From: Treponemataceae bacterium
GTDB taxonomy: Bacteria > Spirochaetota > Spirochaetia > Treponematales > Rectinemataceae
DNA length: 64,000 nt
Assembly (NCBI GenBank): GCA_963678065.2
Contig: CAXXVZ010000003.1
Coordinates: 864,001 to 928,000 of the forward strand
Direction of reading: 5' to 3'
The notes under the pieces are model-generated. The model saw nothing but the letters and a program-made list of their open reading frames with translations, was not told the origin of the DNA and searched no databases. Position numbers and translations under genes: made by a program. Shown piece by piece: positions 218 through 10,925 of the stretch. The first letter of the stretch is position 1. Every line of letters begins with the position of its first letter.

Positions 218-315
218 ATAAACCTTACCTCTTACATATATTAATTGTGTCTAATTTTTAATCTAATAATACATTGACTTATAGTATTATGGGACTTAAT
301 AAGCGCGAAGCGTCC

Positions 316-417
316 GCCTAACATTAGCATTCTATCCTGCGGAATCGCGCAACACACGATTCTCGATGCACTACAGGAGGGTGGCACACCGAGAATTCGA
401 TTCTGCAGGATAGAACG
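316..417 (-). other. attC-like recombination site, main part (remainder at 2930-2939)
   Basis: GCCTAAC (316-322; GTTAGGC on - strand) followed by imperfect palindrome CATTCTATCCTGCGGAATCG (328-347) / CGATTCTGCAGGATAGAACG (398-417); the complementary TTAGGC appears only after the inserted element (2934-2939). Confidence 0.6.
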
Positions 418-717
418 TGTTGCACTGAACCGTCGTCCCCTATGGGTACTGTATCAAGTCTTCACATCAAATTGAAGAACAATCCGGGGTTTCTCGGTAC
501 TACAAGGCGGGAAATGAGAGGAGACGCGCGTAACGGGACGATTTTTTTTATTAACGGGCATGTACACGGCAGTACGATTTTTATCCGTAAGCGTGATCAT
601 GGGCAATGCCTTATTCAGAGCAGTTTTTACCTGCCGGGAATTGTGAGGGGATGAAGGGAATACAGGCACAATGGGCGGATGTTCGGTGAAATTCGGACTC
701 AGGAGTCACACCCTCGT

Positions 718-1926
718 TCAGGCAAACACCGCCCTGTTCGGTTCCGGTCCATGGATTTCCCGCAGGAACGCAAGCCGCGATGTGAGCCAATGCGGCCCCG
801 ATGACGACACCCCGATCGGATGGTGAATGCTCAGAGGCAGTCCGCATCGCGGGCAGCGGGAAACGGCGCACGGTTCGACGCGGGGAGCCTCCATCGCGCT
901 CCCGTGTGCCGGGAATTCGTCGGTTTCAGGCCGGTTCGGGAGTGAATCGGACGAGGATGCGATGAGCGCACGCACGCGGACAAGGGAAGCGGTCCGGTCC
1001 CGGTTCCCCATGAAGCCGAAATAGCGGATCTTCCGCAGTCCTTTGGGCAGGATGTGCAGGGTGAACTTTCGGATGAACTCGTCACAGGACAGGCTCATCA
1101 CTCTTCTCGCATGCCCCGCGGCGCGGTCGATCCACGAAAAACTCACTCTCTCCTGAGTGGCACAGACGATGCGGGGTTCGCTGATGCCGACGCGATGCGT
1201 GTAGCGGCCCAAGTATTTGACCACCTGGCCGGGACCACCGAAGGGTGGCTTGGCATAGACGACGAAGTCCTTGCGAGCGGCAGCGCACACCGCATCGCGG
1301 AGCACCGATTCGTCGCCGCACAGGTCATGTCTGCCGATGGACTGCTCAAGACGGCTCAGGAGTTTGCCGCGAAACACCGCTGACAGGCGCTTGACCGAAA
1401 CGAGGTAGGTGGGGTTCCCCGCTATCCAGCGCGAGAAGTCGGACGAAATACCTCCTGTGGGTACGATACAATGGATGTGCGGGTGGAAAGCGAGCTTCTG
1501 GTTCCAGGTGTGGAGGATGGACATGCCGCCCACGCGGGCACCGAGGTTGGCGGGATTGGCGCAGACATCCTTAAGGGTTTCGTGGACCGAGAGGAAGAGC
1601 GCCCGGTAGAATGCGTGGCGGTTGGAAAGGGCAAGGTAGTGCAGTTCGTGGGGGACCGTGAAGACCACATGGAAGTACCCGCAGGGTAAGAGTTCGCCAA
1701 GGCGCGCGCGCACCCAGCGCGCACACGCGGCACCTTGGCAGAGCGGGCAATGCCGGTCACGACAGGAATTGTAGTGAACCTCGCGGTGCCCGCACTCGCA
1801 CGAAAGAACATTCCCTCCGAGTCGCTCCGTCTTGCAGTCGGCTATGTGAGAGAGGACGCTCCGTTCCTGACCGGTGAGCCAGGAGAGCGCCATCCCCCGC
1901 CGCGCTATGTCGCCTAGTGCGCTCAT
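718..1926 (-). CDS. IS91-family (Y2/HUH) transposase with N-terminal Zn-binding domain
   Basis: CECGH...NSCRDRHCPLCQ, YFHVVFTVP, HTW...HPHIHC (HUH), YLGRY (Y2); likely start MSALGD at 1926 overlaps the integrase stop (ATGA). Confidence 0.9.
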   Translation of the reverse strand: MSALGDIARRGMALSWLTGQERSVLSHIADCKTERLGGNVLSCECGHREVHYNSCRDRHCPLCQGAACARWVRARLGELLPCGYFHVVFTVPHELHYLALSNRHAFYRALFLSVHETLKDVCANPANLGARVGGMSILHTWNQKLAFHPHIHCIVPTGGISSDFSRWIAGNPTYLVSVKRLSAVFRGKLLSRLEQSIGRHDLCGDESVLRDAVCAAARKDFVVYAKPPFGGPGQVVKYLGRYTHRVGISEPRIVCATQERVSFSWIDRAAGHARRVMSLSCDEFIRKFTLHILPKGLRKIRYFGFMGNRDRTASLVRVRALIASSSDSLPNRPETDEFPAHGSAMEAPRVEPCAVSRCPRCGLPLSIHHPIGVSSSGPHWLTSRLAFLREIHGPEPNRAVFA

Positions 1927-2810
1927 CGGGGCTTTCCCGCGGAGTGCACACCTGGTGCCGGGAGATGGTCGAGGGGGTTGCGGACACTCTGGAGATGATG
2001 CGTCGCCACGTGCAGGTACACTTCCGTCGTCTGGATGGAGCTGTGACCGAGCATGGACTGGATGGTGCGCAGGTCGGTGTGGTCTTCGAGTAGGTGGGTT
2101 GCGAAGCAATGCCGGAGCGTGTGCGGCGAGATATGCTTCTCGATTCCGGCTTTTCGTGCGATAGCGGGGACCATCCTCTGGATACCACTCGGATCCAGCG
2201 GGCCATCGTTCTTGGCACCCGGGAAGAGCCAGGTTTTCGGCTTGACGAGGCACGAGCGATAATAGGCTCGCAATATCCCGAGGAGGTGGGAACTGAGCTG
2301 GACATGCCGATCCTTGCCACCTTTGCCTTGCCGGACGTGCACGAGCATCATCGTACTGTCGATGTCGGGTATCTGGAGCTTGACCAATTCGCCAAGGCGC
2401 AGGCCGGTGGAGTACAGCGTGGCGATGATCGCATAGTACTTGGGATTCAGCCGCGCGGTTTCCAGAAGAGCTGCTACCTCTTCTTTGGACAGTATGGACG
2501 GAAATCGCCTTCGTCTGCGCTGGAACGGAATGTGTTTGACCGTGAAATCGCAGGTGCGCACGTTCTTGAAATAGAACCTGAGGGCGCAGACCATCTGGTT
2601 GAAGAGAGACCAAGATACTTTTTCTTCATTGACGAGATGATACTGCCACTCCTGGATGTCGGCCGATGTGACACAGGCGATCGGCTTGTCAAGCTGTTCA
2701 AGGTACCGCTTGAGGACGGAGACATAGGTGCTGATGGTCTTGGTGGCGTAGTTGCGGATGACCAGCGCTTTGCGCATGGCTTCGAGTTCGAGTGCGAGTT
2801 CGTAGTGCAT
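1923..2810 (-). CDS. Tyrosine recombinase / phage integrase family
   Basis: N-terminal SAM-like region (RNYATKTISTY), YSTGLR, KGGKDR, HTLRHCFATHLLE, LGHSSIQTTEVY catalytic residues; GGAGGT RBS before ATG at 2810. Confidence 0.92.
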   Translation of the reverse strand: MHYELALELEAMRKALVIRNYATKTISTYVSVLKRYLEQLDKPIACVTSADIQEWQYHLVNEEKVSWSLFNQMVCALRFYFKNVRTCDFTVKHIPFQRRRRRFPSILSKEEVAALLETARLNPKYYAIIATLYSTGLRLGELVKLQIPDIDSTMMLVHVRQGKGGKDRHVQLSSHLLGILRAYYRSCLVKPKTWLFPGAKNDGPLDPSGIQRMVPAIARKAGIEKHISPHTLRHCFATHLLEDHTDLRTIQSMLGHSSIQTTEVYLHVATHHLQSVRNPLDHLPAPGVHSAGKPR

Positions 2811-3475
2811 TGGATACCTCCGGCGTGATGATGCCAGAAGTATCCGTGGTCTATGAATGTGCCCGAACCTCGCAAAAGGTAGGAATGAAAGCGAATCCTC
2901 CACCGCTGGTACAGCGGTTTAGTGCAACAATAATTAGGCTGATCCCTGTAAGTTTCGGTACACAGCTTTCCAGTCCCTATAAAATTCCCTGTTACTACTC
3001 ACTGCACTCTCACAACCTTTTTCTCGTCAATACTTTATAGCTCAGGCGTTATTGGTATGCGGTATTTTATGCGAATCCGCATAAGTCCCCTAATCCTCAA
3101 AAGGGATCCAGACACTATAGCTTCTCCTGTAGGACATCGCTAATGAACACTAGAGCTTCACCCAAGCCATACACATGTCTTTCCTAGCAGTAGCCTGATC
3201 ACTGGTCGATCGCTCCCTGACCGCGGCCGAAACACGCTGATCACCGTAAAGACAATCTGTAGGCTAGTATAACTTCTTTTTTCTTGAATGCAACCGAACT
3301 TGGTTATTTCTTTTGTTGGAACCTATTTGCAGTTGTGAAATACCGTTCCCCAGAGCCTGCTTTTCCCATGAAGATTATTTTGCGCAATCGATCACAACCC
3401 TCTGAGTCGGGAAAACAATGCATATTTCAGAGGTAGCCTCTTGTATACTTAATGTTTGTATAGTATGTATCGATT

Positions 3476-4279
3476 ATGGACGATCATGAGGAATCAGCCT
3501 GCGACATCCGCGTCGGGACGTCGGGGTACGACTATCTCGAGTGGCGAGGGGGCTTTTATCCGGAAGAGCTACCGCGAAAGGAATTCCTTCGCTTCTACAG
3601 CGGGATTTTCCGCACGGTGGAACTCAACTACACCTACTATCGGCAACCGAACGCCGAGAGTATGGCCACGTTGGCGAGGCAGACTCCGGCGACTCTGGAC
3701 TTCTCCGTCAAGGCGAACCAGAGCTTGACGCATGAGGTCAACGAAGGCTCGGTCGGCGAGGATATCAAGGCATTCCGGCAGGGCATCGAGCCATTGCACA
3801 AAGCGGGGAGGCTCTGCGCTGTGCTGATGAGTTTTCCCTTTTCGTTTCATTATCGCCCTCCGGAACGGACGTATCTTTCATGGCTACTCGGGGAACTTGA
3901 GGATCTCCCTCTGGTCGTCGAATTCCGCAGCATCGACTGGTATACGGCGCGGGTGATCGATGGGCTCAAAGAGCGACGGGTGGGAATCTGTACGGTGGAT
4001 GAGCCTCTCCTCCCCGGACTGCCGCCCGTGTCCGACCTCGTGACTTCCGACCTCGCCTATATCCGGTTTCACGGACGGAATGTGGAGACCTGGTGGTCGG
4101 GAGATTCCGCCACCCGGTATGACTATCTCTACTCCGAGTCCGAGCTGAAAGGCTGGAAACCGCGGATCGGCGCGATGATGGAACAGGCGAAAAAACTCCG
4201 TGTATTCTTCAACAACCATCGCTCTGGTCAAGCCACGACGAATGCACGCGACCTGCAGAGGCTCCTTACCGAGGTCTGA
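3476..4279 (+). CDS. DUF72 (YecE-like) protein
   Basis: IRVGTSGYDY.EW...FYP, TVELNYTYY, FSVKA, VVEFR..DW, YIRFHGRN, RYDYLYS, FFNNH motifs. Confidence 0.9.
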   Translation: MDDHEESACDIRVGTSGYDYLEWRGGFYPEELPRKEFLRFYSGIFRTVELNYTYYRQPNAESMATLARQTPATLDFSVKANQSLTHEVNEGSVGEDIKAFRQGIEPLHKAGRLCAVLMSFPFSFHYRPPERTYLSWLLGELEDLPLVVEFRSIDWYTARVIDGLKERRVGICTVDEPLLPGLPPVSDLVTSDLAYIRFHGRNVETWWSGDSATRYDYLYSESELKGWKPRIGAMMEQAKKLRVFFNNHRSGQATTNARDLQRLLTEV

Positions 4280-4280
4280 G

Positions 4281-5477
4281 ATGGCGTACGGAACGATTTT
4301 GCACGTCAACATGGTAGGCATCCTCGCGGCAGTAGAGGAAGGGCTCGACCGAGATCTCAAGGGAAGGCCCTTTGTCGTCGCCATGGCACAAGCGGCCCGA
4401 TCCTGCGTGCTCGACCTCTCGCCCTGTGCCTACCGCGAGGGGCTGCGGGCGGGAATGCCCCTCACACTTGCGCGGAACCTCGTTCCGGGCCTCTCTGTCC
4501 GCGCCCCTAACCTCAAGCTCTGTCAGATGGCCGATGAAATTCTGTTACGTGAAGCCCTCAGCTGTACTCCTCTCGTGGAGCGGGCTGGTGTCGGACACCT
4601 TTTTTTGGACCTTGCGGGCACAACCCGACTTTTGGGTCCCCCTGAGGATGCAGCCCAGCGGATTCGCACGCGCATTCTGAACAAAACCGGATTGCATCCG
4701 ACGCTGGCGCTCGCTTCGACGAAGACGGCGAGCAAGGTCGCCACCCGCGTGTTCCGTCCGGGCGGCTTTGTTGCACTCTCGTCGACGGATGAAAGCGCTC
4801 TTGTCCGAGGTCAACCGGTGAACCTCCTGCCAGGTGTCGGCCCAGTCCTTACTGCCCGACTGTGCACGCTCGATATCAACGATATCGGTGGGCTGGCCGA
4901 TCTTACTACGGAGGAAGCAGTCGCGATCGGCCCACGCGGGCCATTTCTTGTCTGTCGTGCACGCGGGAATGACAATTCGCCAGTGAATCCTGACCCGCCC
5001 GAACGGCGAGCGTTCCATGGGGTGGCACTCTACGAGCCGGACACAACCGACCCTGAGACCCTTCGCGTACGGCTCGCGGAAACTCTGTCGGAGCTCGCGT
5101 TTGCGCTTCGGAGATCCGGTAGTGGCACGCACCGGGTATGCATACAGGTTTACTACACCGACGGCTCCACGAGCGAGGCTTCAGGAAAATCAGGGCGCCT
5201 TTTGTCCCGCGACGACGAGCTTTACCGTCTCGCCCTAGAGACTCTTGTGCGAGCGAAAACGCGGCGTGTGAGGATCCGCCGTATCGGTATTGAACTCTCC
5301 CTTCTGGATTCGGCCGGCCCCGAACTTGATCTCTTTACGCCGATCGAAGGCAAGCGGACGCGCCTCCAGACGGCGGTAGACCGGGTACGGAGCCGGTATG
5401 GCCCCGGAGCCCTTGTTCCAGGCGCCCTGTACGCGCTCACGGGCCGCCAGCTCTCCGGGGCCGAGGCGCTGGCATGA
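4281..5477 (+). CDS. Y-family polymerase-like protein, catalytically degenerate (ImuB-like)
   Basis: DinB-like layout (LKGRPFVV, GLRAGMPL, LPGVGP) but HVNMVG replaces HxDMD and GVGHLFLD replaces SxDEAFLD; ELDLF clamp-binding-like motif. Confidence 0.8.
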   Translation: MAYGTILHVNMVGILAAVEEGLDRDLKGRPFVVAMAQAARSCVLDLSPCAYREGLRAGMPLTLARNLVPGLSVRAPNLKLCQMADEILLREALSCTPLVERAGVGHLFLDLAGTTRLLGPPEDAAQRIRTRILNKTGLHPTLALASTKTASKVATRVFRPGGFVALSSTDESALVRGQPVNLLPGVGPVLTARLCTLDINDIGGLADLTTEEAVAIGPRGPFLVCRARGNDNSPVNPDPPERRAFHGVALYEPDTTDPETLRVRLAETLSELAFALRRSGSGTHRVCIQVYYTDGSTSEASGKSGRLLSRDDELYRLALETLVRAKTRRVRIRRIGIELSLLDSAGPELDLFTPIEGKRTRLQTAVDRVRSRYGPGALVPGALYALTGRQLSGAEALA

Positions 5478-8398
5478 TCGCGCCGCTCTTTGTGCGCTCG
5501 GCGTACTCCTTTCACTGGGGGACGGCCATGCCCGCAGTACTCGCGAAGGCTGCCAAGAAAATGGGCTACGAATCGCTCGCCTTGACCGACCGGAACAGTG
5601 TCCATGGGATTCCTGTCTTTGAAGAAGCCTGCGGAAAAGAAGGGATCAAGCCCATTTTCGGCGCTGAACTACGGTATGAGGGGGGACGAAGCCTCCTCCT
5701 TGCTAGGACTCGGGCGGGGTTTTCGGCGATCTGCCGAATCCTGAGCCTGCGCTCGGAAGGAAGGCTCGATGCACGGGCGATACTATTGGGAAGGCAGGAA
5801 GGGCTTTCGGTCCTCACGGATGATGTAGAGTTTTTAGCGACGACATCGAGAAATCCGGAGCTCTACGCGCTGTTGACGCTAGGGAACCGGCGATACTGGA
5901 AAGCCTTGATCGCGACGGGGCAGGCTCCGATCGCGGCCCCAGAGGTTGTCTTTTTTTCACCTGAAGATCGGAAGATTCAGCGCCTTCTCGTCGCGATCGG
6001 GAGTAACCGATGCGTCGATGAGGTTCGGGAGGAGGAACTAGCCGGCCCTGAAGCTGTCGTGGTGGACCCAGAAGCGATGTGTCGGGAATTCGCCGGCGTG
6101 CCAGAAGCCCTGACAAACAACGAAAAGCTCTGTGAATCCGTAGAGATGCATACGCTCTTTGGCGGATGGGTCTTTCCTCATTATCCGACGGGGAACGGGG
6201 AGCGCGCGGCGGATCTGCTTCGGAAACGGGTGCTGATCGGCGCCTCGAAGCGGTATGGAAGTATCAAGCCGAAGATCCGGGAGCGGATCGACTACGAACT
6301 CAGGGTAATCGAAGAAAAGGGATTCTCTGATTATTTCTTGGTTGTGAAAGATATCGTGTCGGGTGCAAGCCGAAGCTGCGGGCGGGGAAGTGCGGCGGCG
6401 AGTGTTGTGTCCTACGCTCTAGGCATAACGGACGTGGATCCGATCCGCCACGGATTGTATTTTGAACGCTTTTTGAATCCGGGGCGAACGGATCCGCCTG
6501 ATATCGATGTGGACTTTGCCTGGGATGAGCGGGATGATCTCCTCGCGGGAGTAATCGCCGGCTTCGGCGAGGCCCATGCGGCACGCGTGGCAAACCATGT
6601 GTGTTTTCAACCCCGCTCGGCGTTGCGCGAGACGGCCCGCGCTTTGGGGCTGCCGGATGGGGAAATTTCAGCCTTTGAGCAAGCGCTGACCGCGGACCCT
6701 TTGAGGACCTGCGAGGATACCGACGCAACCTGGAAGGGAATCCTTCTGCTTTCGGAGTCACTTATCGGATTACCGCGTCACCTTGGCGTGCATTCCGGGG
6801 GGCTGATTGTGGTGCCGGATGCGCTGTGTGACCATGTGCCTCTCGAACGCACTGGCACCGGAATCCGGGTGACAGCCTGGGATAAAGAGGGGGTCGAGGC
6901 ATCTGGACTCATCAAAATTGATCTTTTGGGGAATCGGTCGTTGGCGGTGGTGCGGGATGCCTTGGCGAATCTAGAAGGCAATGGGAACGGGATCGATGAG
7001 GATTTGTGGAAGCCGATCGACGATGCGGCCACCGTGGAACTGCTGGCGCGCGGCGATTCGATGGGCGTTTTTTATGTTGAGTCCCCCGCCATGCGGATGT
7101 TACAGAAAAAGACGGGGAAAGGGGATTTTGAGCACCTTGTCATCCACTCATCAATAATCAGACCCGCTGCCAACAGGTTTATAAACGAGTATATCGACCG
7201 TCTGAAAGGGAAACCGTATATGCCCCTCCACCCGCGACTTTCGGGACAGCTTGCTGAGACCTATGGGATCATGTGCTACCAGGAGGATGTCTGCAAGGCG
7301 GCAATCGCGCTCGCGGATTTTTCTGCCATGGAGGCTGATAAACTCCGCAAGATTCTCTCCAAAAAGGATGTCGGGACCCGAATTGAGGCGTATCGATCGA
7401 AATTCTTCGAGGGCGCACGGGGGAATAACGTCGCGGAACGGACAATCGCGGAGGTATGGGCGATGATCGTGTCGTTTTCGGGGTACTCGTTTGTAAAGGC
7501 GCATAGTGCGAGCTACGCTATGCTCTCGTTCCGCTCGGCCTACCTTCGACGCCATCACCCAGCGGAATTTATGGCCTCAGTGCTGAGCAATCATGGGGGC
7601 TATTACTCTACCTTGGCCTATGTAAGCGAGAGTCGAAGGATGGGGTTGACCGTACGGCCTCCCGACGTAAACGCAAGCGAAACGCGCTGCATAGGCAGGG
7701 GGAATGAGATCCGGTTCGGGCTTTCGATGATCACATCGTTCGGGGAGGCAGCAGTCGTCGACATCCTTGAGGAACGGGCTGCCCGTGGGCCGTTTTCAAG
7801 CGTGGAGGATTTCTCCCGACGGGTCTCGCTCGATAGGACTGCGGCCGAAGCCCTCGTCGGATCCGGGGCTCTGGATTCACTGACGGGCGGTCCGTACCAT
7901 GCGGAAACGCTCATGCGCCTTCTGTGCGTTTACACGTCGGGCGAGAGTGACGGGCAACGGAGTGCAGAGTTGGCCTTCGACGAGGCACCTGTGGTGCGAG
8001 CGAAACAGAGAAGACCGGATTCTGTGAGAAAAATTCTTGAAGCCGAGATGCGTTATCTAGGGACAACGCTTGGAGCACACCCTCTCGAACTTTGGCCGCA
8101 GGCTCTATCCCGACCTCGGAGTCTCGCACGGGATCTTTCCAGGCTAAGGGGGAGAATCGTAGATCTAGTCGGCTGGCCGATCACTTCGAAACCGGTTTTA
8201 ACTGCTACCGAGGATGTAATGGAGTTTATCTCCTTCGAGGATGAGACCGCTCTGTACGAGACGGTTTTGTTTCCTGATGCGCTCCGGAGGTTCCGCCACC
8301 TGCTGTTCAGCGATGGGCCGTTGCTTGTACGAGGTCGCGTCGAGGAGGACCGGGGAGCGATTTCTGTAACCGTGATGGCTTTGGAACGTGTGCGGTGA
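5474..8398 (+). CDS. dnaE2: DNA polymerase III alpha subunit, accessory/error-prone type (DnaE2/ImuC-like)
   Basis: PHP domain (RSAYSF, LALTDRN), GRGSAAAS, FERFLN, PDIDVDF, KIDLLG, YSFVKAH, C-terminal OB fold (FISFEDETA); ATGA-coupled to the upstream gene. Confidence 0.85.
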   Translation: MIAPLFVRSAYSFHWGTAMPAVLAKAAKKMGYESLALTDRNSVHGIPVFEEACGKEGIKPIFGAELRYEGGRSLLLARTRAGFSAICRILSLRSEGRLDARAILLGRQEGLSVLTDDVEFLATTSRNPELYALLTLGNRRYWKALIATGQAPIAAPEVVFFSPEDRKIQRLLVAIGSNRCVDEVREEELAGPEAVVVDPEAMCREFAGVPEALTNNEKLCESVEMHTLFGGWVFPHYPTGNGERAADLLRKRVLIGASKRYGSIKPKIRERIDYELRVIEEKGFSDYFLVVKDIVSGASRSCGRGSAAASVVSYALGITDVDPIRHGLYFERFLNPGRTDPPDIDVDFAWDERDDLLAGVIAGFGEAHAARVANHVCFQPRSALRETARALGLPDGEISAFEQALTADPLRTCEDTDATWKGILLLSESLIGLPRHLGVHSGGLIVVPDALCDHVPLERTGTGIRVTAWDKEGVEASGLIKIDLLGNRSLAVVRDALANLEGNGNGIDEDLWKPIDDAATVELLARGDSMGVFYVESPAMRMLQKKTGKGDFEHLVIHSSIIRPAANRFINEYIDRLKGKPYMPLHPRLSGQLAETYGIMCYQEDVCKAAIALADFSAMEADKLRKILSKKDVGTRIEAYRSKFFEGARGNNVAERTIAEVWAMIVSFSGYSFVKAHSASYAMLSFRSAYLRRHHPAEFMASVLSNHGGYYSTLAYVSESRRMGLTVRPPDVNASETRCIGRGNEIRFGLSMITSFGEAAVVDILEERAARGPFSSVEDFSRRVSLDRTAAEALVGSGALDSLTGGPYHAETLMRLLCVYTSGESDGQRSAELAFDEAPVVRAKQRRPDSVRKILEAEMRYLGTTLGAHPLELWPQALSRPRSLARDLSRLRGRIVDLVGWPITSKPVLTATEDVMEFISFEDETALYETVLFPDALRRFRHLLFSDGPLLVRGRVEEDRGAISVTVMALERVR

Positions 8399-9154: not shown

Positions 9155-9346
9155 ATGAACGGCGTGGAAAAACAGTATTACTCAATCGAAGAGACCGCAC
9201 GGTATTTTGGTTGTTCCTCTCTGACCGTTCGCCGGTGGGTGAAAAAGAATCTCTTGCCATCGTTGAAATTGGGAGGGCGCCGTTTGATTCCGATTACGGC
9301 GCTATTACGGCTGCACGACCAGTTGTATGACAAAGAGGTCGCTTGA
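9155..9346 (+). CDS. Excisionase-family HTH DNA-binding protein
   Basis: YYSIEETARYFGCSSLTVRRWVKKNLLPSLKLGGRRLIP fits the xis/HTH_17 pattern; GAGG RBS. Confidence 0.85.
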   Translation: MNGVEKQYYSIEETARYFGCSSLTVRRWVKKNLLPSLKLGGRRLIPITALLRLHDQLYDKEVA

Positions 9347-9372
9347 CCCGTTCGACGATCACCGGAGACTGC

Positions 9373-9618
9373 ATGACACTCGATGAATTTCTCGCCCGCC
9401 ACCAGCGACAGGTTCGGCGGGCGAAACCAAAATTGCATATTCACGCTATCGATACGGATGAGGTTTTCAGGCCCGCGACGCTCGGGCGCGCGAGCGCGCG
9501 GCTCGAGGTGCTGCTTTTTAATACGACACTGCACTTTGGGATCCACAGGTACTCGGGGAAGCTCCTTCCGGGGCTTGTGGTGCACCGGCTGGGCGTGTAC
9601 TCGGGAGGCCGAATTTGA
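9373..9618 (+). CDS. Hypothetical phage-like protein
   Basis: GGAG RBS before ATG 9373; sits in the tightly packed xis-rep run. Confidence 0.5.
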   Translation: MTLDEFLARHQRQVRRAKPKLHIHAIDTDEVFRPATLGRASARLEVLLFNTTLHFGIHRYSGKLLPGLVVHRLGVYSGGRI

Positions 9619-9995
9619 GGACGTTCCGGGATGAGGGCAGCCGCGTTGGCGCGGATGGACAGATGGAATTGTTCCCGTTCCAGCCGGTGACGCGCCGGCG
9701 GGAGGCGTCGATCGATGAGAGATTTTTGGCTTTCCACTACGCGAACCCGCATGTGTACCGCAACCTTTTAGTTCTGGCCCATCAGCTGAAGAGGGCCGGA
9801 AGGGAGCGGATCGGGATCAAACTGCTCTTCGAGAAGCTTCGATGGGAGTACCTGACGCGGACAGATCAGGCTATGGATGCATACGCGATCAACAACGATT
9901 TTACGTCGCGATACTCGCGGCTGTTGATGCAGGATCCGGGGCTTGCGGGGATGTTCAAGACGCGGGCGCTCCGGGATACGAGGAAGAGCGCATAG
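9615..9995 (+). CDS. Phage-like hypothetical protein (possible winged helix)
   Basis: F.AFH.ANPHVY...GRERIGIKLLFEKLRWE...INNDFTSRYSRLLM pattern recalled from prophage proteins; GGAGG RBS. Confidence 0.6.
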   Translation: MRTFRDEGSRVGADGQMELFPFQPVTRRREASIDERFLAFHYANPHVYRNLLVLAHQLKRAGRERIGIKLLFEKLRWEYLTRTDQAMDAYAINNDFTSRYSRLLMQDPGLAGMFKTRALRDTRKSA

Positions 9996-10046
9996 GGTGG
10001 AGATGGCGGGGACCGGGAGTTCGGCCCCCGCACTGCAAGGACTGGA

Positions 10047-10925
10047 ATGCACGTGTGGCTGAGACTCTATGTGGAGGTCCTGAACGATCCGAAAGTGCAA
10101 AAGCTTGAGGGAAAAACCTTTAGGACCTGGGTGAACTTGCTGTGTGTCGCGAAACAGGCTGACAAGGCAGGTGCACTGCCAGGGCGAGAGGATATCGCCT
10201 TTCTTTTACGTATGGAGGCGGGAGAGCTCGAGACGCAGCTCGACACGTTACGGGCCGCGGGGCTTGTCGAGGGGGAGAGGGATCTCGCGATGCACGGGTG
10301 GAGGGGGCGGCAGTATGACTCGGACGCGGACAGGACGGCGCTGGAACGAAAGCGCCGGCAACGGAAGAGGGAGAGCGAGCGCGCCGGGAAGGATGGTGGG
10401 GGGGGGCCTACTCTCAGGGATGTTGTCGCCGGACTAGTCACGAGTTCCGTTACAAATTCTGTCACGCGTGACGGATTCCAAGATGTCACGCGTACAGAGC
10501 AGAGCAGAAGCAGAGAGAGAGTCAGAGCAGATACAGAAGAGGGAGGGGAACTGGTCCGGCTTCCTCCTGCTGATCTGCTTCTTTCGGAGTGGGTGAGCCG
10601 ACGGAATTCGGCTGTCGGGTTTCTGGTCGGGTTTGATGAGCGGGACCGGGGGTATTCGGATCAGGCGCTCGCGAAGCTTGGGGGGGATCTGGAGCTCGCG
10701 CTCTCCTGTGTGGATTGGTATTTCTCACACTGGCAGGACTTCTGGTTCGCCTGCAAGCAGGGGGACGGGTATAGGGGGCCGAGTTTGCGGAGGCCGGAGT
10801 TTTGTTTTCGATCGTTTGCCGATCATATCGAGGCATGTATTCCGCCTGTACGCGCGGGGGGGCGTGATGTTTTGGAGGCGGACAGAGCTGTCGGGATGGG
10901 GGATCCAGACGATGAGCCGTTTTAG
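10047..10925 (+). CDS. Phage replication initiator (replisome-organizer-like N-terminus)
   Basis: WLRLYVEVLNDPKVQKL, WVNLLC, ERKRRQRKRE basic stretch, VT-repeat linker. Confidence 0.75.
   Translation: MHVWLRLYVEVLNDPKVQKLEGKTFRTWVNLLCVAKQADKAGALPGREDIAFLLRMEAGELETQLDTLRAAGLVEGERDLAMHGWRGRQYDSDADRTALERKRRQRKRESERAGKDGGGGPTLRDVVAGLVTSSVTNSVTRDGFQDVTRTEQSRSRERVRADTEEGGELVRLPPADLLLSEWVSRRNSAVGFLVGFDERDRGYSDQALAKLGGDLELALSCVDWYFSHWQDFWFACKQGDGYRGPSLRRPEFCFRSFADHIEACIPPVRAGGRDVLEADRAVGMGDPDDEPF
10425..10550 (+). repeat. Iteron-like GTCACG repeats followed by a CAGAG purine tract inside the rep gene
   Basis: GTCGCC 10425, GTCACG 10437, GTTACA 10449, GTCACGCGTGAC 10461, GTCACGCGT 10485 (12-bp phasing), then CAGAG/CAGAAG repeats. 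Confidence 0.5.

What the first reader, a model, noticed from the sequence alone, without database searches (positions are those of the whole stretch)
316..2939. Tyrosine recombinase + HUH (IS91-like) element with terminal inverted repeats, inserted inside an attC-like hairpin
Seen: 19-bp TIRs (418-436 and 2911-2929, 16/19 identical) and no obvious target duplication. Removing 418-2929 rejoins GCCTAAC-ATTAG-[20-bp arm]...[20-bp arm]-ATAA-TTAGGC into an integron attC-like palindrome. The two genes are ATGA-coupled and catalytically intact. Known: canonical IS91 elements have asymmetric oriIS/terIS ends rather than TIRs; some IS91-family entries carry an upstream tyrosine recombinase; attC sites recombine as folded ssDNA. 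Inference: a two-enzyme element in which the HUH protein produces a single-stranded or rolling-circle intermediate and the recombinase integrates it at attC sites via TIR-borne binding boxes (GTTGCAC resembles an att R box), i.e. a parasite of cassette arrays.
Basis: partly seen in the sequence, partly recalled or inferred. Interest (0 to 1): 0.8.

Follow-up and report, generated by a model that had tools for sequence, protein, structure and literature searches.

The report
Jumping gene disguised as integron cassette
A 2.6-kb jumping gene, present three times in this genome, carries its own end hairpin and sits exactly at the points where integrons take up gene cassettes, and it likely moves by making a single-stranded copy with its rolling-circle enzyme and pasting it in with its own integron-integrase-like enzyme.

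Summary
The hairpin is not a target split by the element: it travels with all three genomic copies. The element spans 322-2927 (2606 bp) between two G|TT crossover points, like an integron cassette. This copy sits in an attI core identical to the host integron's; the other two follow complete attC sites.

Across relatives in several phyla the layout recurs: a box, 1-2 nt, a stem-loop, then the crossover (42 of 51 ends). This is not canonical attC geometry (2 of 42 pass). The inverted repeats pair only in a circle. Multi-copy relatives occur where no IntI was found and land at dif-like or palindromic sites, so host IntI is probably not needed. An independent sample matched less often (13 of 32 right ends).

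Likely mechanism: the HUH enzyme supplies a single-stranded circle and the element's own IntI-related recombinase joins it. No circle was seen. The gene pair is catalogued and one cassette-like case is in print; I found no description of the site or mechanism. This scan noted the family before on other DNA (31 notes, at least 22 genomes).

The parts
322..2927 (-). Whole element, 2606 bp, between two G|TT crossover points; three copies in the genome
1923..2810 (-). Tyrosine recombinase, 295 aa (Phage_int_SAM_4 + Phage_integrase); IntI-related, lacks the I2 insertion
718..1926 (-). IS91-family Y2 HUH transposase, 402 aa, with zinc-binding domain; start overlaps the recombinase stop
2913..2927 (-).
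2899..2917 (.). Small subterminal hairpin at the left end; the CCGC..GCGG motif recurs in relatives, but it is not significant alone (z = -1.0)
419..433 (-). R''-like box plus extension (other arm of the TIR), inside the element; would pair with the left end in a circle
322..418 (-). Element's own att hairpin: 2-nt spacer, 18-bp stem (330-347 / 398-415), variable loop, 6-nt spacer, G of the crossover
440..446 (-). Conserved CCCATAG motif resembling the subterminal oriIS motif of IS91 and IS1294
2926..2945 (-). Target: attI core, identical over 20 nt to the site downstream of the host intI (C3:98296); no intI beside it here
303..321 (-). Start of the next host cassette (R' half and a leader common in host cassettes); not part of the element

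Best explanation
This is a 2.6-kb mobile element bounded like an integron cassette, which likely moves on its own: its HUH enzyme would release a single-stranded circle, and its own IntI-related recombinase would join the folded end of that circle to a target site. Shown: boundaries at N|TT crossovers, an own hairpin, intact enzymes, three copies at attI or attC R' positions. Inferred steps: (1) the Y2 enzyme binds the ori-like motif and displaces the bottom strand; where it nicks is unknown. (2) In the circle the two inverted repeats pair, and the end folds into a 14-bp box stem, a 6-by-2 internal loop and an 18-bp inner stem. (3) The recombinase exchanges one strand with a target made of two inverted boxes about 6 bp apart (attC R', attI, or dif-like), and replication resolves the junction. 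Once inserted, the outer stem is largely lost, which would favour insertion over excision.
For: Copies 1 and 2 are identical over 322-2927; copy 3 has 21 substitutions, 7 in the hairpin loop and none in its stem arms. All 23 distinct left junctions of the close clade read G|TT; 10 of 17 with enough flank are complete canonical attC (shuffles 29 of 1100). Multi-copy families pin the crossover between N and TT, with unrelated spacers at different targets, the IntI crossover position (established knowledge). A stem starts 0-3 nt after the box in 42 of 51 distinct right ends (shuffles 92 of 940). Position 4 of the repeats is complementary in 37 of 43 elements, with four pair types. The predicted circle junction folds at -37.1 against -27.1 kcal/mol for the inserted form, both 144 nt. 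A recombinase lies directly upstream of 70 of 72 Y2 genes; 56 pass a strict catalytic-motif filter. No IntI was found in 15 of 19 genomes of the host's phylum holding the Y2 gene, nor in G554 and G676 with four Y2 matches each. Two rhizobial plasmids carry 10 and 7, and alpha-Proteobacteria lack integrons (PMC4889954, passages). The ori-like motif occurs in 40 of 51 ends (shuffles 13%). The bottom-strand circle is the functional IS91 intermediate (PMC13181058, passages), and by integron convention it is also the recombining strand of att hairpins (recalled).
Against: No circle junction appeared in contigs of 8 public runs; contigs drop rare forms. No enzyme activity was tested. Junction sequence alone cannot separate recombinase joining from HUH joining. 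The recombinase lacks the I2 helix that IntI uses to read attC and avoid a second exchange (PMC7790495, passages). In the independent set the motifs were recovered less often: left 18 of 28, right 13 of 32, stem 9 of 13, recombinase 29 of 34, partly, by eye, because of a subfamily with another box sequence. The end profile was built from 43 of the same ends used. Many genomes without IntI are fragmented, and rhizobial chromosomes were not searched. By IS91 spacing the nick would fall inside the element. Kin are not independent.
Confidence: 0.58

Rival explanations
1. The HUH transposase alone cuts and joins, as in IS91. The recombinase is accessory (target guide, regulator like Orf121, or resolvase).
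For: Y2 scores as an IS91 transposase (359 bits, cut-off 125). The upstream gene overlaps its start, as orf121 does in IS91. Only about three bases are shared at the junctions, which HUH joining could also give.
Against: IS91 chooses a tetranucleotide on one side. Here the bases after the crossover vary, while a box 5-6 bp upstream is conserved, a two-box recombinase geometry. All six recombinase catalytic residues are invariant in 60 aligned homologues.
Confidence: 0.17
2. The recombinase both excises and integrates. The HUH protein acts as a rolling-circle replication initiator on the excised circle from the internal ori-like motif, as in CTXphi-type elements.
For: The ori-like motif lies inside the element (most often 37 nt before the end of the box), whereas IS91 ends 4-5 nt after its motif.
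Against: The inserted site has lost most of its outer stem, so recombinase excision looks disfavoured. No free circles were seen.
Confidence: 0.13
3. It is a passive gene cassette moved only by the host integron integrase.
For: The host has an intact IntI. Copy 1 sits in an attI core. A host cassette is duplicated on both sides of copy 3 (4 differences in 623 nt), as IntI shuffling would give. A relative is an exact cassette in a class 1 integron.
Against: Only 2 of 42 element hairpins fit canonical attC geometry. The same end layout and many copies occur where no IntI was found.
Confidence: 0.1
4. One reading: a TIR-bounded element (418-2929) inserted inside an attC hairpin.
For: The rejoined sequence folds at -28.6 kcal/mol.
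Against: The hairpin is in all three copies and in relatives at 55-76% protein identity. Copies 2 and 3 give no matching outer arm. The match arises because 316-321 and 2934-2939 are the two inverted boxes of the true attI-type target.
Confidence: 0.02

Closest known systems
IS91-family elements with an upstream tyrosine recombinase (ISShvi3, seen in PMC9229058; ISMno24, seen as an annotation; ISAzo26 and others recalled from ISfinder, not seen)
   Same: Same gene pair and order. [quoted passage not shown] IS91 recombinases are named as the closest IntI homologues lacking its insertion (bioRxiv 542381, passage).
   Different: Those passages do not describe the ends, the own hairpin, the crossover position, the target rule or a mechanism. 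ISfinder itself could not be consulted.
IS91 / IS801 / IS1294 (rolling-circle HUH insertion sequences)
   Same: Y2 transposase with zinc domain, no target duplication, ori-like motif at the 3' end, overlapping upstream gene.
   Different: Has a recombinase, inverted boxes at both ends and a terminal hairpin. The end lies about 120 nt beyond the ori-like motif. The target is a two-box site, not a CTTG/GTTC tetranucleotide. Y2 is only about 25-28% identical to IS91 and IS1294.
Integron gene cassette with attC and IntI
   Same: G|TT boundaries, complementary R boxes, imperfect palindrome after the genes, position at attI or attC R', same orientation as the array.
   Different: Box-to-stem spacer is 1-2 nt rather than 5, with no canonical L box. 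It encodes its own recombinase, which is below the IntI cut-off (205.7 vs 265 bits) and lacks I2. The family also occurs outside integrons.
IS1111-attC elements and group IIC-attC introns
   Same: Mobile elements specialised on integron sites (titles in reference lists; introns discussed in PMC9229058).
   Different: They use other enzymes and interrupt attC (recalled). This element leaves the upstream attC intact and adds itself as a new cassette.
CTXphi and other elements exploiting Xer (IMEX)
   Same: Folded single-stranded DNA integrated by a tyrosine recombinase without I2, with one strand exchange (PMC7790495, passage). Some relatives here use dif-like targets.
   Different: This element encodes its own recombinase, has no phage genes and is present in many copies.

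Membership tests
IS91 family | Y2 HUH transposase with zinc-binding domain | tested here: met
   PF04986, PF14319, NF033538 at 359 bits; HUH and two tyrosines invariant
IS91 family | No target-site duplication | tested here: met
   Only the GTT core is shared at both junctions
IS91 family | Element ends a few bases after the oriIS motif, next to a CTTG/GTTC-type tetranucleotide target | tested here: not met
   Motif present but internal; end about 120 nt further on; bases after the end vary
IS91 family | Bottom-strand single-stranded circle as intermediate | not testable with these tools
   No junction in contigs of 8 runs; no raw reads available
Integron gene cassette | Bounded by G|TT crossovers with complementary R' and R'' boxes, located at attI or attC R' | tested here: met
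   3 of 3 genomic copies; 23 of 23 close-clade left junctions
Integron gene cassette | Canonical attC: R'' + 5 nt + L'' with extra base, L' + 5-6 nt + R' | tested here: not met
   2 of 42 element hairpins reach 6 of 7 pairs under that rule; upstream host attC sites reach 7 of 7. The IntegronFinder model itself was not available.
Integron gene cassette | Depends on IntI for movement | tested here: inconclusive
   Family is multi-copy where no IntI was found, but this host has IntI
Integron integrase (IntI) | I2 insertion and TIGR02249 score above cut-off | tested here: not met
   205.7 < 265 bits; insertion absent; K-to-HxxRH distance 65-71 aa vs 107 in two IntI; separate clade
attC-interrupting elements (IS1111-attC, IIC-attC introns) | Inserts within and splits an attC site | tested here: not met
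   Upstream attC sites are complete and the hairpin belongs to the element

The most novel reading that the evidence does not exclude
These elements form an undescribed class of transposon, 'HUH copy-out, tyrosine-recombinase paste-in', that recombines a folded single-stranded site without the I2 helix. Their hairpin and IntI-sister recombinase would be a living model of the self-mobile ancestor from which attC sites, cassettes and integron integrases arose.
Probability: 0.45. Interest if true: 0.88.

Novelty: new variant of a known kind. Interest (0 to 1): 0.7.

Why it matters
How integron integrases moved from double- to single-strand recombination, and where attC sites come from, are open questions. 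Here the closest IntI relatives, without I2, travel with a conserved attC-like hairpin and an enzyme that makes single-stranded DNA, which makes those questions testable with a standard assay. The family is large: Y2 matches in 19 of 401 genomes of the host's phylum and 29 of 400 in a gammaproteobacterial sample. It takes first place in arrays at attI, and one relative already sits as a cassette in a clinical class 1 integron. Its short-spacer site would probably be missed by attC finders, so arrays may be mis-annotated.

Tried and rejected

Target preference for the GGACGC leader after all three copies: rejected, since it is common in host cassettes.

IS91-style nick at the GTTC at the base of the hairpin: rejected, since those four bases vary across the family.

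First attC scan with a fixed 6-nt spacer missed host sites and was repeated with 5 or 6.

Circle junction in Logan contigs of 8 runs: none; contigs cannot show absence. Runs with a small share of words were not used.

Complex prediction of recombinase with transposase: no verdict, score 0.00, not used as evidence.

Promoter scan of 2800-3480: nothing.

Rows dropped before counts: 20 duplicate and 9 low-scoring ends of 80; 4 false motif hits and one duplicate locus; three unpublished genomes (G713, G444, G546). Only the 29-of-400 tally includes those three.

Ten paper searches found no description of the site or mechanism. Subscription papers, ISfinder, TnCentral and all supplements were not seen and could hold one.

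Full report
OBSERVATION. The inverted repeats at 418-436 and 2911-2929 match at 16 of 19 positions. A 295-aa tyrosine recombinase (PF13495 + PF00589) and a 402-aa IS91-type Y2 transposase (PF14319 + PF04986; NF033538 at 359 bits) lie on the minus strand and overlap by ATGA. All six recombinase catalytic residues are invariant in 60 aligned homologues. The HUH motif and both tyrosines are invariant in 62 transposase homologues. The hairpin at 316-440 is far more stable than shuffles on both strands (z about -3.8).

THE BOUNDARIES ARE NOT THE TIRS. The genome holds three copies, and all share the hairpin. Read in gene orientation, each copy starts at a G|TT point and ends with a box complementary to that start, two bases, an 18-bp stem-loop, six bases and another G|TT. 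The element is 322-2927, 2606 bp. Copies 1 and 2 are identical. Copy 3 has 21 substitutions, a 1-nt insertion and a 6-nt deletion; 7 substitutions fall in the hairpin loop and none in its stem arms.

Copies 2 and 3 follow complete canonical attC sites. This copy follows a 20-nt stretch that occurs only twice in 5.27 Mb even at three mismatches: here, and 158 bp downstream of the host intI at the head of its array. I read that stretch as attI from its position. Copies 2 and 3 give no such arm. The leader after each copy is common in host cassettes.

CLOSE RELATIVES. The nearest named records are Spirochaetota assemblies. One genome has six exact left ends, five in complete attC sites of the host type and one in a variant attC. 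All 23 distinct left junctions of the close clade read G|TT. Of 17 with at least 60 nt of flank, 10 are complete forward attC (shuffles 29 of 1100). The other seven are this attI, two attI-like sites, one attC with a broken left arm, two attC-like sites that fail the rule and one unclear, the last six by eye. Contigs of public runs add further junctions at 2928-2929 whose loose ends resemble attC L' boxes.

FAMILY-WIDE ANATOMY. Of 80 downstream regions, 20 were duplicates and 9 scored low. Of the remaining 51 ends, 42 have a stem starting 0-3 nt after the box, 40 of them at 1-2 nt (shuffles 92 of 940). Only 2 of those 42 fit canonical attC geometry. The two repeats agree at 11-13 of 13 positions in 43 of 43 elements, near-identical copies included, and position 4 is complementary in 37 with four pair types. 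That fits pairing in a circle, but equally a symmetric protein-binding site. The computed circle junction folds 10 kcal/mol better than the inserted form. A CCATR motif lies upstream of the box in 40 of 51 ends (shuffles 13%), resembling the ends of IS91 and IS1294 fetched here.

An independent gammaproteobacterial set was weaker: left motif 18 of 28, right motif 13 of 32, stem 9 of 13, recombinase 29 of 34. By eye, several misses are a subfamily with another box sequence but a similar layout.

TARGETS AND HOST DEPENDENCE. In multi-copy families where the flanking bases vary, the crossover falls exactly between N and TT, and the spacers of different targets are unrelated. Distant relatives show a CATAA-like box 6 bp before the crossover and often TTATG after it, recalling dif (motif recalled), or land in palindromes. 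Two rhizobial plasmids hold 10 and 7 transposase matches; Cury et al. found no integrons in 243 alpha-proteobacterial genomes (PMC4889954, passages). Of 19 sampled genomes of the host's phylum with the transposase, 15 had no IntI hit; they are 73-98% complete and fragmented. G554 and G676 have megabase contigs, four matches each and no IntI hit. Four of five other genomes checked did have IntI, as did three of five. A relative sits as an exact cassette in a class 1 integron of E. coli plasmid NZ_AP018145.1.

THE RECOMBINASE. It lies directly upstream of 70 of 72 transposases with enough flank, and 56 pass a strict motif filter. It scores below the IntI cut-off and lacks the I2 insertion. In a 51-sequence FastTree the element enzymes form one clade (support 0.80) apart from six IntI (1.0), inside a shared group (0.95); sisterhood is not resolved. 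The model (pLDDT 87.8) matches IntI4 and XerA about equally. Smyshlyaev et al. already name IS91 recombinases as the closest IntI homologues without the insertion (bioRxiv 542381, passage).

MECHANISM. Shown: anatomy, boundaries, targets, intact enzymes, recent copying. Inferred: the transposase releases the bottom strand, the functional IS91 intermediate (PMC13181058, abstract and passages). The circle's end folds, and the element's recombinase makes one strand exchange at a two-box target, resolved by replication as for attC and CTXphi (PMC7790495, passages). The unmatched spacers would block a second exchange without I2. I give this 0.58. Host IntI may still shuffle the element inside arrays: a cassette is duplicated around copy 3. 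No circle was seen in contigs of 8 runs.

WHAT IS KNOWN. [quoted passage not shown] Ten searches of open literature found no account of the site, crossover or mechanism. I saw passages only of PMC5737581, PMC13393415, PMC3971601 and PMC9345347, which added nothing on this, and no supplements. Subscription journals and ISfinder were out of reach. The scan has noted this family on other DNA (31 notes, at least 22 genomes). Several notes place the insertion at attC R'' or inverted; I saw no such case in the close clade.

VERDICT. A real element with corrected boundaries. It has an IS91-family transposase but fails the IS91 end and target rule. It is cassette-like but has no canonical attC. New variant of a known kind, interest 0.7.

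Noticed in passing
L111 (NZ_AP018145.1, 122.2-124.8 kb): A recombinase + Y2 relative sits as an exact cassette between aac(6')-IIa and aadA4 in a class 1 integron of a clinical E. coli plasmid, with the same short-spacer hairpin; the only full-length match among plasmids.
   Followed up: partly
G000 C3:2358230-2362120 (L003): An Imm5-like cassette is duplicated on both sides of copy 3 (attI-like site, cassette, element, cassette; 4 differences in 623 nt). The array continues with an AAA ATPase gene.
   Followed up: partly
window 2926-2945 and G000 C3:854377-864321: Orphan attI with no intI beside it. Copies 1 and 2 flank one roughly 10-kb cassette (glycosyltransferase and hexapeptide-repeat genes) swollen by tandem IS200 copies and other insertion sequences.
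   Followed up: partly
L050, L057-L059, L078, L079, L128 left ends: The element's left box is replaced at one point by an inserted sequence; Rfam finds group II intron domains in L057 and L078. The element end may be an intron target.
   Followed up: partly
G000 C3:849282-849880 (L001): A site interrupted by a group II intron remnant ends in the right arm of an element-type hairpin, with no element genes found there.
   Followed up: partly
L129, L131, L134, L138, L139, L155-L157, L161: A second subfamily with a different box sequence (CCCTC-type) but, by eye, a similar box, spacer, stem and crossover layout; several copies are in a genome with no IntI hit.
   Followed up: no
L043, L051 and other rhizobial copies: Some copies land in palindromic repeats resembling rhizobial intergenic repeats (label recalled); others at dif-like sites.
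   Followed up: partly
G000 C3:97121-118000: Host chromosomal integron with intI pointing the same way as its cassettes and at least 9 similar attC sites.
   Followed up: partly
window 3476-8398: DUF72, DinB/ImuB-like and DnaE2 genes in a row, a likely mutagenesis cassette, divergent from the orphan attI.
   Followed up: no
window 9155-10925: Small helix-turn-helix-like ORF and a replication-initiator-like ORF without Pfam hit; possibly a prophage or plasmid remnant.
   Followed up: no
G000 C3:818125-818194: Near-perfect 70-bp palindrome with AAC/GTT ends, without an extra base.
   Followed up: no
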